Source: the human T2T-CHM13v2.0 reference genome, Homo sapiens
NCBI RefSeq assembly: GCF_009914755.1
Contig: NC_060927.1
Direction: 5' to 3' (one strand)
DNA length: 64,000 nucleotides
Shown here: in pieces, positions 12,840 through 54,135 of the stretch
Layout: each line of letters begins with the position of its first letter
Position numbering within the stretch: position 1 is the first letter of the stretch
Notes under the pieces: generated by a model
The model's input: only the letters and a program-made list of their open reading frames with translations
Database searches by the model: none
What the model was told of the DNA's origin: nothing
Made by a program: the position numbers and the translations under genes

Positions 12840-13168
<329 letters not shown>

Positions 13169-13748
13169 CATGTGAAACATTTTTCAAAACAAAATAACAA
13201 AACTTAGCGAAGAGGGAAGAGATGGTGGTGATTAGATGAGCATTAACTTGATTCTTTTTGACAATCTTTTCTTGAGCATTAGTAGCGCTAAGTGAGCACA
13301 ATACATGTAATCACTGTTTCTGAAGCCTTAATCATCCCTTTGAAACCCATCCATTTTTTCCACTTGCAGACCATGCCATGAGTTGAGAGGGAACTGCCTG
13401 TGTCTTTGACAATATAACTGAATGTACGAGCAATCTGATTTCACCTGTTCATCAACTCTAAATTAGAAGAATGTCAACTCATGCAGTGGCTACAGTATTA
13501 GACAAGGACTTTGCATCTAGTCACTGGAGTAGGAGGAATAGAGATTTTTGAATTCTGGGCAGAACCTTTTCTTCAGCATTTTTGAGCCTGCTGAAGTCAT
13601 TTTTGGCCTTTCCAAATATATCTTACCCTTACATGGCGAGAAGTAACCTTGATCTCCTCTAAGTCACTATAGTCTTTTATCTATGCGCCATGGTTGGCAC
13701 ATAGTGGACATCTAACAAATGTTTGAATGATGGAATAGGAAGAAAAGA

Positions 13749-13848
13749 TTTTCTTTCCTTTTCAGGGGCTACCTAGGACAAACACCACTAGAAGGTATGG
13801 ATCTTCTAGTGGTGTTTGTCCTAGGTAGCCCCTGAAAAGGAAAGAAAA
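13749..13848. repeat. Perfect 46-bp inverted repeat with 8-nt spacer
   Basis: 13749-13794 (ttttctttccttttcaggggctacctaggacaaacaccactagaag) is the exact reverse complement of 13803-13848. Spacer is gtatggat. Confidence 0.98.
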
Positions 13849-14210
13849 CCTGACATCAGAAGACAACCATGCTCTAGGGCAACTCCGGTGCTTTGTAAAG
13901 AAGGAGAACATCAGAAACAATGTATAATATTCTCAAAGACCCTTAGCTGCAGAATTCATATGGTGTCACTTGAAGATTTTTCTCTCTTAAGATTTCAGGA
14001 GAACACAGGCAGTTCCAGGAGACACAGGCAGTTCCGTCTCAATTCACGGCAAGGTCTGCAGGAGAACACATAGACTCTGTTGTACTTGAGGGAAGATTTT
14101 TCTAGCCTAGCCTGAAGGGAGGCCACATGTTATCCCAGACCCACCTTGCCACCTTAGTAGACACTATAAACTCATACAACTCCTAGAGTGTAACACTGGA
14201 AATGATTTGT

Positions 14211-16573: not shown

Positions 16574-18207
16574 TTATGACAATTGGAGAATCTGAGGCCC
16601 TTGGGGATTGAAGAGTTGCCCAGTATAGTGAGTTGGTGGCAAAGCGTGGATGAAAATAACGCAGATATCCCTCACTTCTGTGCTTTTCTCACTATAATAC
16701 GGTTCTTAACAAACTGATAAAAAATCTCCTAGCTGCTATAAGCCATAAACCCTTTTTTGTAGAAGGTGGCTGTAACTTTGACATTGACTAGGTTTCAGTT
16801 CGGAGATAGGAGTGGGAAGAGGGCTTTGACTTAAGGTATATGCTGGTTCTTTGTTTAATGAATGTCACAAGATAGTTGCTTTTTCCACCTCCGGTTCCAT
16901 TCTTTTTAAATACAGAGTCCCTCTTTTTTGTAAAGGCCTTTTAATTCTTTACCCTCAGGAGTACAGCTGTTACTAAGTCATCAGATTCCACGGTGAACTA
17001 ATTCAACCATCTTCTTTTCTAAAATCTGTACTATAGGAATGGGCATTGCAGTGGGGTCCTAAATCTTTCATAAATTATTTAGTCTCTTTGTTTGTTGGTT
17101 GGGTTTAAAAAAAAAAAAACATATAATCAGTTTAGGAGCCAGTTTTTTTTTTTTTTCCAGTTTTTCTTGACCATCATCTGCTTAAAAGAGAGGGAAGGAA
17201 ATAGATGAAAAACTCAAATATCCATTCTGAATGTCCAATTTTTTAAAAATGTGGTCATAAAGACTGAAGTTTGCAGTTGCCCTGGCTGACACCCTCTAAT
17301 TTCATTCCTAAATAACTGTTCCTTTACATTTTGAAGTTTTTTCATTCTTGCTTTCTCTTACCAGAAAGTACCATTATCATGAATCATTTTAAGGGAGTAT
17401 TTTATAGAAAATTGGAATAGGGTGGACTCAAGATAGGAACACAGTCAGGGGCCTGGGGACATGGAGAGGTGTGCAAGAAACAGAAACAGACACAGATGAC
17501 ACAGTGCTAAAGGCACAGTAGTGGAGATCACTGGAACTCTAAAGTCAGCAGACTTCCTGATTTTGAGCTATGTTGTATTGGACAAGATACTTAATCTCGC
17601 TGTGCTCATTATCTGGTCTCTAAAATGAGAATAATACCCCTATCTTCAGGATTATGAAGATTACAAAAGTCAAAGTATGGGTGTTTATTATAATATTGCA
17701 TTCATCCAGCTGGTTAGAGTTTGCCTTTGGGATGTGATTGAGAAAGTTTTTTTACCTTCTCCTTTTTGTTTGAAATGGTTATACTAGTTATGTAGTATCA
17801 GAAACCAGTAAAACATATTTTTGCTTTAATATAAAAAGGGAATATGTGAACAGCCTGCCATTTAGTTAGCGCTCAGTAAATGTGAGTTCTCTTTTCATCT
17901 TTCCTTCCTTCCCCAACACACCTTCCACCTCCAAATTTCCTTGATTTTTTTCTTGACACCAGCCTTTTCCTCTGTAAGGAAGGGAATAAGACCCAGCTAT
18001 ATCTATAACTCTTCTGGGTTTGGGGTAGATACAGGATGATTGGAGGGAAGTCTGCCCGTGCAAGAGGCAATAGAGTATATAAAGACTCGGACTTGGGAGA
18101 AATTCAGATCTAAGTTTGTATCCTTACCCCTACCATTTAAAAGCTAAGTAACCTAAGACAAGTTTTTAAATAAAACCTCTGTATTTTCTTTTTTAAAATA
18201 GTGATAT

Positions 18208-30539: not shown

Positions 30540-33596
<3,057 letters not shown>

Positions 33597-49009: not shown

Positions 49010-50204
49010 GTAATCAGCCTGAAGCCCAGAGCTGCATCCCCGTCATCACAGTTTCCTCTTGACATGCCAGAGTGAACCATCTCGTTCTGCTGAGTGGAAT
49101 ACTGTGTCCATCATTGGGTTCTGGACTCTGCATCTCCTCTCTCTCCTATCCTTTCCCCAGGACCTTTCTGTCTGTGAGGCATGGTCCTGGAGTCTGCATC
49201 TTTTCATTTCTCTGATTCCTTTTTATGGCTCTAGTGTCTGTAGATGAGCAAGCAGTTTGGTTCTTAGCACCCTCTTGCAGTGTAAGGTTCCCAGACTGAG
49301 GAAAACTTTAGAGGGCTTCCCAGAATATTGCACGTTACCTCCGTATTGTTGGTGGCAAGATATTTCTCGGTAGGCACATGTCTGCCTTTCAGGTATGCTG
49401 CCCCGAGTGATGGCTCCTTTGGGCCTGAGGCTATACTTTAGAGGAAACTTAGAAAAGAACACTTCCTTGTTTTAATACAGTGAATCACTGAAAGTCCAAT
49501 TTTTTTTTTTTTTTAACCTTCCTCCATCCTTTGCTTCATAATAAATAGTGATTGGGTCCATTTGGGGAAGAGGAGGACGTTCAGTTTCAACAATGCATGT
49601 ATTTCCTATGTGATAAAAGAAGTTTCTCATCATTCATTATACAGTGTGTTATGACTTACTGACTGTTTTCAAACAACTTGTTACATAGGCAAGATTGATA
49701 AAAATTATTCCCATTTTGTAGATCAGGGAAATGGAAACCTAGAGAGTACAAGTAACTTGCTTAATGTTTTATGCAGCTAGGTAAGGGGAAAGCAGAACTA
49801 AAAACTAGTTGCCTAAATTTAGACCTAGTGCTTTTATGTTGAAACTGATAAAAAGACATTTGTCTCAGTCCACATTCTCGCTCTGTAGAGAGGCAGCACA
49901 AAGGATGCTGGGCTGGGAGTTAGAGGACCTGAGTTTTGCTCCTTTCTCTGCCAATGATAAGTTTTGTTTGTCCTGAAAAGTTACTTAACTGCTCTGAGCC
50001 TCAATTTCCTCCTTTGGTAAATGGGGATAATTATCTCTGTCCCACCTTCATCACAGTGTTGCTATTAGAATTAGACTAACTCAGTATGTGAACATGTTTT
50101 GAAAACTGTATATAAATGTTTGGTGGTAGGGATGTTGCTGCTGCTATGTAGAGGACTTGGTGAAGTCAGGATTGTGAACTTATTCCCCTGTTATTATTTT
50201 CCAG

Positions 50205-53978: not shown

Positions 53979-54135
53979 GTCCTTCCGGCCAGACTTCGTG
54001 CTCATCCGGCAGCATGCATTTGGCATGGCGGAGAATGAGGACTTCCGCCACCTGATCATTGGTATGCAGTATGCAGGCCTCCCCAGCATCAACTCACTGG
54101 AATCCATATACAACTTCTGTGACAAGCCATGGGTG
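53979..54135 (+). CDS. SYN2: Synapsin II exon 4, 157 bp: (R)[52 protein letters not shown]
   Basis: Acceptor cctctaccttctcaccag; donor GTG|gtgagt at 54136. Contains the conserved synapsin motif YNFCDKPWV. Confidence 0.97.

What the first reader, a model, noticed from the sequence alone, without database searches (positions are those of the whole stretch)
13749..13800. The hairpin's left arm is a complete 29-nt cryptic 'poison' micro-exon that the right arm would mask
Seen: ttttctttccttttCAG (strong acceptor, AG 13764-13765), then 29 nt (13766-13794), then AAG|GTATGG (donor). The inverted repeat covers the polypyrimidine tract, acceptor and exon almost exactly, and the donor GT sits in the loop. 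Inserted between exon 1 and exon 2 (phase 2), it shifts the frame; by my translation the first stop is TGA at 54053-54055 in exon 4, 80 nt before that exon's end, so NMD is predicted. Inference: an RNA-structure switch in which the duplicated arm silences, or conditionally releases (helicase, ADAR, elongation rate), an NMD-coupled micro-exon controlling SYN2 dosage. The coincidence could also be chance.
Basis: partly seen in the sequence, partly recalled or inferred. Interest (0 to 1): 0.8.

Follow-up and report, generated by a model that had tools for sequence, protein, structure and literature searches.

The report
Intronic SYN2 palindrome burying a decoy exon
A near-perfect 106-base palindrome deep in the first intron of the human synapsin II gene happens to contain good-looking splice signals around 29 bases, but the evidence points to an always-closed hairpin hiding a decoy exon rather than a regulated switch of gene dosage.

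Summary
Arms 13746-13794 and 13803-13851 are 49 nt with one mismatch and an 8-nt spacer. The RNA folds at -99.8 kcal/mol, z = -15.7.

The masking idea is supported in silico. Opening the acceptor costs 25.7 kcal/mol, against 5.4-9.5 for the four real SYN2 acceptors in the window.

A regulated poison-exon switch is not supported:
- No branch-point motif lies in an AG-free zone of only 18 nt.
- No UGC microexon enhancer is present.
- The pyrimidine tract is predicted paired at every stage of transcription.
- Three literature searches found nothing on a SYN2 poison or cryptic exon.
- Decoy site pairs outnumber real exons 13 to 4 on this strand.

The palindrome is single-copy and has no target-site duplication. 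It did not reach the cut-off of any Rfam family. It looks like a one-step inverted duplication, of the kind reported in tens of thousands in primate genes (PMC10710096). Transcript data and other primate genomes could not be examined here.

The parts
13746..13794 (+). Left arm of the palindrome. It contains the pyrimidine tract (13749-13763), CAG (13763-13765) and the 29-nt pseudo-exon (13766-13794).
   Evidence: 49 nt, 98% complementary to the right arm; sequence
13795..13802 (+). 8-nt spacer GTATGGAT, which begins with the donor-like GT. In the RNA fold its outer two positions pair, leaving a 4-nt loop.
13803..13851 (+). Right arm, the reverse complement of the left arm. Read on the minus strand it carries the same acceptor-like motif (13.82 bits).
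13766..13794 (+). 29-nt pseudo-exon (decoy). It has no stop in the SYN2 phase and shifts the frame by +2.
13731..13746 (+). Upstream purine-rich run, 75% complementary to the pyrimidine tract. It is predicted to pair with the tract (local hairpin, -10.2 kcal/mol) before the right arm is transcribed. It also holds the three AGs (13737, 13741, 13746) that shorten the AG-free zone.
   Evidence: (I3)
13712..13716 (+). CTAAC, the best branch-point-like motif. It lies 50 nt upstream of the AG but is separated from it by three AGs.
54053..54055 (+). First in-frame stop (TGA, exon 4) if the 29 nt were included

Best explanation
This is a single-copy, evolutionarily young, near-perfect palindrome about 100.9 kb into the 136-kb first intron of SYN2. 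It most likely arose in one step by an inverted duplication, such as a replication template switch, and has no regulatory role. Its left arm happens to read as pyrimidine tract, CAG, 29 nt and AAG|GT, so it is an intronic decoy (pseudo-) exon. In the pre-mRNA the tract is predicted to pair first with the purine run just upstream, and then, once the right arm emerges 40-100 nt later, to enter a stem of about 50 bp. U2AF and U1 would be kept off, exon 1 would be joined to exon 2 as annotated, and the hairpin would leave with the intron lariat, possibly after ADAR editing. Shown here: the palindrome, its uniqueness, the motif scores, the frame arithmetic and the predicted thermodynamics. Inferred: the template-switch origin, the lack of any use in vivo, and the fate of the hairpin.
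For: The palindrome is real and single-copy. A 201-nt search of the whole genome returned only itself. The 32-nt arm with up to 3 mismatches occurs only as the two arms, with 0 control hits. The flanks are not direct repeats, so there is no target-site duplication. No Rfam family reaches its gathering score: the best is mir-3199 at 71.9 bits against a cut-off of 100, on both strands, alongside several other hairpin miRNA models. That pattern is what any perfect hairpin would give. The acceptor is buried: unpaired probability is at most 0.003 for 13752-13765, and opening costs 25.7 kcal/mol against 5.4-9.5 for the real acceptors. The site is weak where a matrix score does not look: the AG-free zone is 18 nt with no yUnAy motif, there is no TGC in 13700-13765, and 29 nt is too short for ordinary exon definition (passages of PMC12871342). 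Decoys are common: on the + strand, 17 AG-GT pairs of 3-300 nt score at least as well as the weakest real sites, and only 4 of them are real exons. Template switching is reported to have made 53,666 putative events in primate gene regions; 31,007 formed new RNA stems, 6,054 were miRNA-sized, and only 57 of those are annotated miRNAs (PMC10710096, section 9). Structure-embedded, unused splice sites in introns are an established class (PMC1935003, abstract and discussion).
Against: By the crude matrix, the acceptor is better than all four real acceptors in the window and the donor is better than that of exon 2. Only 3 pairs on the + strand and 2 on the - strand reach the candidate's own level on both sites, so this is an unusually good decoy. 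The arm ends exactly on the last 'exon' base. A short AG-free zone does not exclude use: 8,657 exons in Gooding et al.'s data set have zones of 12-19 nt, and AGs within 12-15 nt of a branch point can be bypassed (PMC1431707). ATGAT (A at 13730) lies 16 nt upstream of the last intervening AG, just outside that tolerance. No transcript data, no editing or small-RNA data and no other primate genome were available, so absence of use and recent origin are both inferred. The matrix frequencies were recalled from memory and are not MaxEntScan or SpliceAI scores.
Confidence: 0.78

Rival explanations
1. One reading: a structure-gated, NMD-coupled poison micro-exon. The right arm normally masks the 3' splice site, and regulated opening (by a helicase, ADAR editing or elongation rate) lets the 29 nt in and lowers SYN2 output.
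For: The site scores are strong. Inclusion gives a frameshift to TGA 54053-54055, in exon 4 of 13. The stem covers the tract, the AG and the exon precisely. Masking is large in silico. A precedent exists for structure hiding usable pseudoexon sites (PMC1935003).
Against: An opening cost of 25.7 kcal/mol means the stem is essentially never open at equilibrium. The tract is predicted paired even before the right arm exists. With the arm removed it still costs 10.6 kcal/mol, more than any of the four real acceptors. No branch motif lies in the AG-free zone, and three AGs sit between the candidate branch points and the CAG. There is no UGC motif. Neural microexons are reported to have an accessible branch-to-3'ss region, the opposite of this one (PMC12871342). 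Editing the acceptor A would destroy the AG rather than release it (inference from ADAR chemistry). No exon is listed here in the hub's RefSeq table, and the papers searched report none.
Confidence: 0.04
2. A latent pseudo-exon with no normal function, but one that mutation could activate. A deletion or rearrangement of the right arm (palindromes are deletion-prone) would expose a strong pyrimidine tract, AG and donor, producing a SYN2 loss-of-function allele as in the ATM and CFTR pseudoexon cases.
For: Removing the right arm in silico lowers the acceptor opening cost from 25.7 to 10.6 kcal/mol and the donor cost from 8.7 to 6.4. The matrix scores exceed those of real exons. Experimental precedent: manipulating the structure exposes unused 5' splice sites (PMC1935003 abstract).
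Against: The same branch-point, AG-zone and exon-length problems apply. The residual upstream mini-hairpin (-10.2 kcal/mol) still covers the tract. This was not tested in any way here.
Confidence: 0.12
3. The hairpin is a small-RNA precursor or dsRNA element: a young, unannotated miRNA-like or endo-siRNA hairpin like the palindromic mir-3199 locus, or an ADAR-edited intronic duplex. The splice-like motifs would be irrelevant.
For: The best Rfam match is mir-3199 over the full model length on both strands (71.9 and 71.5 bits, E about 1e-12 in this 2.5-kb search). The real mir-3199 locus is also a perfect palindrome (-106.1 kcal/mol). The arms share 17 of 21 positions, and 13 of 5000 shuffles score as high. 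The hairpin is on the sense strand of a neuronal host intron, the usual setting for young template-switch miRNAs (81 of 99 intragenic ones; PMC10710096).
Against: The score is below the gathering cut-off of 100. The motif shared with mir-3199 finds only 2 further loci genome-wide against 1 control hit, and neither is a palindrome, so there is no family. The stem of 49-52 bp and loop of 4-8 nt depart from the preferred 35-bp stem and loop of 10 nt or more (PMC10710096 introduction). Only 57 of 6,054 suitable template-switch hairpins are annotated miRNAs. No small-RNA or editing data were available.
Confidence: 0.06

Closest known systems
Structure-masked pseudoexon splice sites in ATM and CFTR introns (Buratti et al. 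2007, PMC1935003; abstract and discussion read)
   Same: An intronic sequence is bracketed by viable-looking splice sites that go unused because they sit in RNA stems. That paper proposes structure as a general inhibitor of pseudoexons.
   Different: Those cases were shown by minigene and in vitro splicing and were discovered through patient mutations; this one is prediction only. Their stems are ordinary imperfect folds, whereas this is a near-perfect 49-bp palindrome. Here the 3' splice site is the buried one, not only the 5' splice site.
Hairpins created by replication template-switch mutations in primate genes (Monttinen, Frilander, Loytynoja 2023, PMC10710096; abstract, sections 9 and 15 and passages read)
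   Same: [quoted passage not shown] Most such hairpins have no annotated product.
   Different: The origin could not be polarised here because no outgroup genome was available. The stem is longer than the miRNA-sized class.
hsa-mir-3199 palindromic locus (Rfam RF03906)
   Same: A perfect palindrome read on both strands, of similar length and energy (-106.1 against -103.0 kcal/mol for equivalent segments). One arm shows 17 of 21 local identity.
   Different: The score is 71.9 bits, below the gathering cut-off of 100. There is no evidence of a shared family and no evidence of processing.
Editing-dependent Alu exon of NARF (Lev-Maor et al. 2007, seen only as described in the review PMC4761006, passages)
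   Same: An intronic inverted repeat forms dsRNA around a would-be exon, and ADAR action on that duplex decides exon use.
   Different: In NARF, editing creates the 3' splice site in a 300-nt Alu pair. Here the AG already exists and editing of its A would abolish it. No Alu is involved.
SRRM4-dependent neuronal microexons
   Same: A short exon-like unit with a long pyrimidine tract in a synaptic gene.
   Different: It has no UGC motif, its branch-to-3'ss region is fully paired, it is not frame-preserving, and at 29 nt it exceeds the 3-27-nt definition.

Membership tests
Structure-masked pseudoexon (ATM/CFTR type) | An intronic segment flanked by splice-site-like motifs comparable to real sites | tested here: met
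   Acceptor 13.46 bits and donor 8.21 bits, against 11.56-12.54 and 7.34-10.22 for the 4 real exons (matrix frequencies recalled)
Structure-masked pseudoexon (ATM/CFTR type) | Splice site(s) embedded in a stable RNA stem | tested here: met
   Predicted only. MFE -99.8 kcal/mol; acceptor opening cost 25.7 kcal/mol against 5.4-9.5 for real acceptors
Structure-masked pseudoexon (ATM/CFTR type) | Inclusion appears when the structure is opened | not testable with these tools
   Needs a minigene or antisense-oligonucleotide experiment
Poison exon (AS-NMD cassette) | Inclusion gives a premature stop more than 50-55 nt upstream of the last exon junction | tested here: met
   TGA 54053-54055 in exon 4 of 13 (exon count from the hub's table)
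Poison exon (AS-NMD cassette) | Inclusion is seen in transcripts and stabilised when NMD is blocked | not testable with these tools
   No RNA-seq access. No exon is listed here in the hub's RefSeq table, and the papers searched report none
Poison exon (AS-NMD cassette) | A usable branch point upstream of the acceptor | tested here: inconclusive
   No yUnAy motif in the 18-nt AG-free zone. CTAAC (-50), TTGAA (-39) and ATGAT (-35) lie upstream of 3 AGs, while 4 of 4 real exons have a motif inside their zone. Short zones do occur in real exons (PMC1431707)
SRRM4-type neuronal microexon | A UGC motif between the branch point and the 3' splice site | tested here: not met
   0 TGC in 13700-13765. 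The source notes that some neural microexons lack the motif (51 of 231 human ones; PMC12871342)
SRRM4-type neuronal microexon | An accessible, extended branch-to-3'ss region | tested here: not met
   Unpaired probability at most 0.003 across 13752-13765
Recursive splice site of long introns | A 3' splice site AG directly followed by GT, which regenerates a 5' splice site | tested here: not met
   The AG is followed by GGGCTA. The definition is recalled from memory
mir-3199 family / canonical pri-miRNA | Rfam gathering score reached | tested here: not met
   71.9 bits against 100
mir-3199 family / canonical pri-miRNA | A stem of about 35 bp and an apical loop of 10 nt or more | tested here: not met
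   Stem 49-52 bp, loop 4-8 nt. The criterion is from PMC10710096
MITE / DNA-transposon palindrome | Multiple genomic copies and flanking target-site duplication | tested here: not met
   Only self hits. The flanks AGAAAAGA and CCTGACAT are not direct repeats
Template-switch-generated hairpin | A perfect reverse-complement repeat adjacent to its template | tested here: met
   46 nt perfect, 8-nt spacer
Template-switch-generated hairpin | One arm absent from the ancestral or outgroup sequence | not testable with these tools
   No primate or other mammalian genome is held

The most novel reading that the evidence does not exclude
The palindrome is a 'born-masked' or secondarily masked latent poison exon. 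One arm carries a splice-competent 29-nt unit (or a 47- or 52-nt variant using the upstream AGs), and the other arm is what keeps SYN2 safe from it. Natural variants or somatic deletions of the right arm, or conditions that unwind or hyper-edit the stem in neurons, would then divert SYN2 transcripts to NMD. If the left arm is ancestral, the duplication could even have been selected as a suppressor of a leaky cryptic exon.
Probability: 0.1. Interest if true: 0.6.

Novelty: new member of a known kind. Interest (0 to 1): 0.27.

Why it matters
If the ordinary reading is right, the locus is a clean worked example of two known things coinciding. One is the one-step birth of a perfect hairpin in an intron. 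The other is RNA structure silencing a decoy exon whose motif scores beat those of real exons, which is a caution for splice predictors that ignore structure. Its practical value is as a variant-interpretation flag. Deep-intronic SYN2 variants that remove or disrupt 13803-13851 deserve a splicing assay, because SYN2 is a synaptic gene and the exposed sites score well. If the regulated-switch reading were right, it would be a rare example in a human gene of a near-perfect intramolecular duplex gating NMD-coupled dosage control. Nothing found here favours that.

Tried and rejected
1. Repeat-family or MITE origin: rejected. The whole-genome DNA search and the 32-nt pattern with up to 3 mismatches returned only the two arms, and there is no target-site duplication.

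2. Homology to mir-3199: considered because of the Rfam hit and the 17 of 21 arm similarity (13 of 5000 shuffles as high). A degenerate shared pattern found only 2 further loci against 1 control hit. Neither is a palindrome (the reverse complement matches 11 of 20 and 13 of 21 positions within +-200 nt). I treat the similarity as chance plus generic hairpin scoring. The genome-wide RF03906 search scored only 55 of about 1,035,952 first-look candidates and returned only the true chr22 locus, so it cannot count relatives.

3. Recursive splice site: rejected, because the AG is not followed by GT.

4. TDP-43-type cryptic exon: no (TG)n or (GT)n run of 4 or more units in 13400-14200. The SYN2 + 'cryptic exon' search gave 30 papers. 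I opened 3, and there SYN2 was a Synapse accession, a qPCR control gene or a polyadenylation change. The other 27 were not opened.

5. SYN2 + 'poison exon': 1 paper, a Synapse-accession artefact.

6. A whole-word search for SYN2, nonsense-mediated decay, alternative splicing and intron 1 (at least 3 of 4 terms): 422 papers, 12 listed, none relevant by title or abstract. Only 2 of the 12 held the word SYN2: a plant-intron review that I did not open, and the paper read.

8. MaxEntScan, SpliceAI, SVM-BPfinder, junction databases, editing databases, small-RNA atlases and primate alignments are not on hand. A matrix recalled from memory, calibrated on the window's own exons, was used instead.

Full report
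**1. What is in the sequence**

The window is part of intron 1 of SYN2 (hub annotation). Reading 13500-14100 shows ttttctttccttttc at 13749-13763, CAG at 13763-13765, and 29 nt at 13766-13794. AAG|GTATGG follows, with its GT at 13795-13796, exactly as reported.

The repeat finder gives one inverted repeat with arms 13746-13794 and 13803-13851: 49 nt, 98% complementary, 8 nt between the arms. The only mismatch is the third base of the arm, so 46 nt pair perfectly. The left arm ends on the last base of the proposed exon.

As RNA, 13720-13880 folds at -99.8 kcal/mol. Shuffles average -39.5 with sd 3.8, z = -15.7, and 0 of 200 shuffles fold as well. A scan of all 64 kb for inverted repeats within 150 nt finds 8 pairs. 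The other 7 are 19-39 nt at 72-84% complementarity, so this hairpin stands alone in the window.

**2. The frame arithmetic**

Joining the four annotated exons gives one open frame, which starts at the second base of exon 2 (AKCFRGKK...). I fetched the start of the gene. Exon 1 ends CTG|GTAGGT after 389 coding nt, so two bases are carried over, with junction peptide ...DEPHADW|AKCFRG.

With the 29 nt inserted there is no stop inside them in this phase. The frame shifts, and the first stop is TGA at 54053-54055, 80 nt before the end of exon 4. With 13 exons in the selected transcript (hub table), the 50-55-nt rule (established knowledge) predicts NMD.

One nuance concerns the donor. The G and U are predicted to be paired most of the time (unpaired probabilities 0.05 and 0.11), which leaves a 4-nt loop.

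**3. How good are the sites, and how rare is such a pair?**

MaxEntScan and SpliceAI are not available. I used log-odds matrices built from frequencies recalled from memory and calibrated them on the window itself.
- The acceptor scores 13.46 bits, rank 5 of 4946 AGs on the + strand.
- The donor scores 8.21 bits, rank 61 of 3418 GTs.
- The four real exons score 11.56-12.54 (acceptors) and 7.34-10.22 (donors).

So the sites are strong by this measure. Pairs 3-300 nt apart with both scores at least equal to the candidate's number 3 on the + strand, including the candidate, and 2 on the - strand. Pairs at least as good as the weakest real sites number 17 on the + strand, of which 4 are the real exons, and 8 on the - strand. 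By this measure decoys outnumber real exons about 3 to 1 on the sense strand.

Because of the palindrome, the same acceptor motif also exists on the minus strand (13.82 bits). The motif is a property of the arm sequence, not of the SYN2 reading direction.

As an order-of-magnitude inference, take one independent micro-decoy of the candidate's quality per roughly 128 kb of strand and about 60 permissible positions per hairpin. The chance that a given 106-nt hairpin holds one is then near 0.05%. The literature reports 6,054 to 31,007 template-switch stems in primate gene regions. A handful to a few tens of such coincidences are therefore expected genome-wide. The threshold was set after seeing the candidate, so this is only a rough guide.

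**4. What the matrix does not see**

*Branch point.* The nearest upstream AG is at 13746, so the AG-free zone is only 18 nt. Its single A (13748) sits in AAGAT, with no U at -2. The best branch-like motifs all lie upstream of three AGs (13737, 13741, 13746):
- CTAAC at -50
- TTGAA at -39
- ATGAT at -35

All four real exons have a motif scoring 3 or 4 of 4 inside their own AG-free zones of 26-62 nt.

Under the scanning model, the first AG more than about 12-15 nt downstream of the branch point is used (PMC1431707, passages). Here that would favour 13746 or 13741 over the CAG. This weakens the site but does not exclude it. The same paper reports 8,657 exons with zones of 12-19 nt, and it allows AGs close to the branch point to be bypassed.

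*Exon size.* A unit of 29 nt is below what ordinary exon definition accommodates. Neuronal microexons are reported to compensate with SRRM4-bound UGC motifs and with an unusually accessible branch-to-3'ss region (PMC12871342, passages). Here there is no TGC in 13700-13765, and the region is fully paired.

*TDP-43.* There are no UG or GU repeats of the kind that mark TDP-43-repressed cryptic exons in 13400-14200.

**5. Masking**

In a 401-nt context, the unpaired probability across 13752-13765 is at most 0.003. Forcing the 17-nt tract plus AG open costs 25.7 kcal/mol. The comparison values are 5.4-9.5 kcal/mol for the four real acceptors, and a median of 7.4 and maximum of 16.4 for 40 random AGs. 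The donor 9-mer costs 8.7 kcal/mol, against 5.3-7.8 for real donors.

Folding successive nascent transcripts shows the pyrimidine tract pairing at once with the purine run at 13731-13746 (local hairpin, -10.2 kcal/mol). It is then handed over to the right arm as that arm appears. When the right arm is removed in silico, the acceptor still costs 10.6 kcal/mol, above all four real acceptors.

The statement that 'the right arm would mask it' is therefore well supported by prediction. The same numbers argue that the stem is a permanent lock rather than a switch. These are thermodynamic predictions on naked RNA. Helicases, RNA-binding proteins and kinetics are not modelled.

**6. What the palindrome is**

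It is single-copy. A 201-nt search of the whole genome returns only itself in both orientations. The 32-nt arm with up to 3 mismatches occurs only as the two arms, with 0 control hits. The flanks are not direct repeats. It is therefore not a MITE or any other repeat family.

Against Rfam, nothing reaches a gathering score. The best match is mir-3199 (71.9 and 71.5 bits on the two strands, cut-off 100). MIR7127, mir-3198, MIR4208 and mir-3075 follow, all of them hairpin miRNA models.

The true mir-3199 locus on contig 22 is itself a perfect palindrome. One arm shares 17 of 21 positions with the SYN2 arm, and 13 of 5000 shuffles score as high. However, a pattern of the shared positions finds only two further loci in the genome, against one hit for the reversed control, and neither of them is a palindrome. 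I read the resemblance as chance on top of generic hairpin scoring.

[quoted passage not shown] Those events create a complete stem in a single step. The paper reports 53,666 putative events in primate gene regions, of which 31,007 formed new RNA stems and 6,054 were miRNA-sized. Only 57 of the 6,054 are annotated as miRNAs (PMC10710096, abstract and section 9).

Zero mismatches in 46 nt fits a recent origin. With no other primate genome on hand, I can neither date the event nor say which arm is the copy.

**7. Mechanism I commit to**

The locus is a neutral by-product: a young palindrome whose left arm happens to read as a decoy exon. The predicted and inferred sequence of events is:
1. The tract is sequestered co-transcriptionally, first by the upstream purine run and then by the right arm.
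2. U2AF and U1 do not engage.
3. Exon 1 is spliced to exon 2, 35 kb downstream, as annotated.
4. The hairpin leaves with the lariat of the 136,054-nt intron (length plus the hub table).

A 49-bp perfect duplex in a neuronal pre-mRNA is a plausible ADAR substrate (established knowledge of ADAR substrates; not tested here). Editing the acceptor A would abolish the AG rather than free it. My confidence in this reading is 0.78.

The rivals are:
- a latent, mutation-activatable pseudoexon (0.12)
- a small-RNA or dsRNA element (0.06)

**8. Comparison with what is known**

The closest functional analogue is the set of structure-embedded, unused splice sites of the ATM and CFTR pseudoexons. There, opening the stem experimentally exposes the sites, and the authors propose structure as a general brake on pseudoexons (PMC1935003, abstract and discussion).

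The closest analogue for origin is the template-switch hairpin class (PMC10710096). The NARF Alu exon is the known case in which an intronic inverted repeat plus ADAR decides exon use, but there editing creates the AG (seen only through the review PMC4761006).

The locus fails the tests for an SRRM4-type microexon, a recursive splice site, membership of the mir-3199 family, and a MITE (see the membership table).

**9. Literature on SYN2**
- 'SYN2' + 'poison exon' gave 1 paper, a Synapse-accession artefact.
- 'SYN2' + 'cryptic exon' gave 30 papers. In the 3 I opened, SYN2 was an accession number, an unchanged qPCR gene or a polyadenylation change.
- A whole-word search combining SYN2, nonsense-mediated decay, alternative splicing and intron 1 listed nothing relevant among its 12 rows.

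Supplementary tables of cryptic-exon and poison-exon catalogues were not examined and could hold such a junction.

**10. Verdict**

Masking is supported in silico. The regulated switch is unsupported and, on balance, unlikely. The locus is a new member of known kinds: a template-switch-like intronic hairpin and a structure-silenced pseudoexon. It is of modest interest, mainly as a flag for interpreting deep-intronic SYN2 variants and as a test case for structure-aware splice prediction.

Noticed in passing
window 13731-13764: A second, nested quasi-palindrome centred near 13747/13748. The purine run TGGAATAGGAAGAAAA is 75% complementary to the start of the left arm, so the upstream flank also resembles the distal end of the right arm as a direct repeat (AGGAAGAAAAG against AGGAAAGAAAAC). 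It could be a footprint of how the large palindrome formed, or simply low-complexity similarity.
   Followed up: partly
window 13996-14070: Small local duplications just downstream of the hairpin. ACACAGGCAGTTCC occurs twice, 19 nt apart (14003 and 14022). CAGGAGAACACA occurs twice, 63 nt apart (13996 and 14059). This suggests the neighbourhood has undergone several small replication-slippage or template-switch events.
   Followed up: no
window 49161-49392 and 30564-30830 (+ strand): Two other decoy 'exons' whose acceptor and donor matrix scores both exceed the candidate's (14.7/8.7 bits and 13.5/8.6 bits). The first lies only about 150 nt downstream of real exon 2. Neither is listed as an exon in the hub's table.
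   Followed up: no
window 17922-17971 (- strand): A 50-nt antisense-strand decoy pair with an acceptor of 13.5 bits and a donor of 9.3 bits, the only other micro-sized pair at the candidate's level.
   Followed up: no
window 12891-13167 (- strand): Two sub-threshold Metazoa_SRP matches (47.2 and 44.7 bits, cut-off 70), plus mir-1268 and mir-3135 hits. They lie within the stretch masked as repeat at 12844-13206. This is the signature of an Alu element, about 550 nt upstream of the hairpin.
   Followed up: no
L003 (G000:C22:28381942-28382028): The annotated mir-3199 locus scores 109.4 and 109.3 bits on its two strands. It is a perfect palindrome whose pairing continues into the flanks, and like the SYN2 hairpin it has no flanking direct repeat.
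   Followed up: partly
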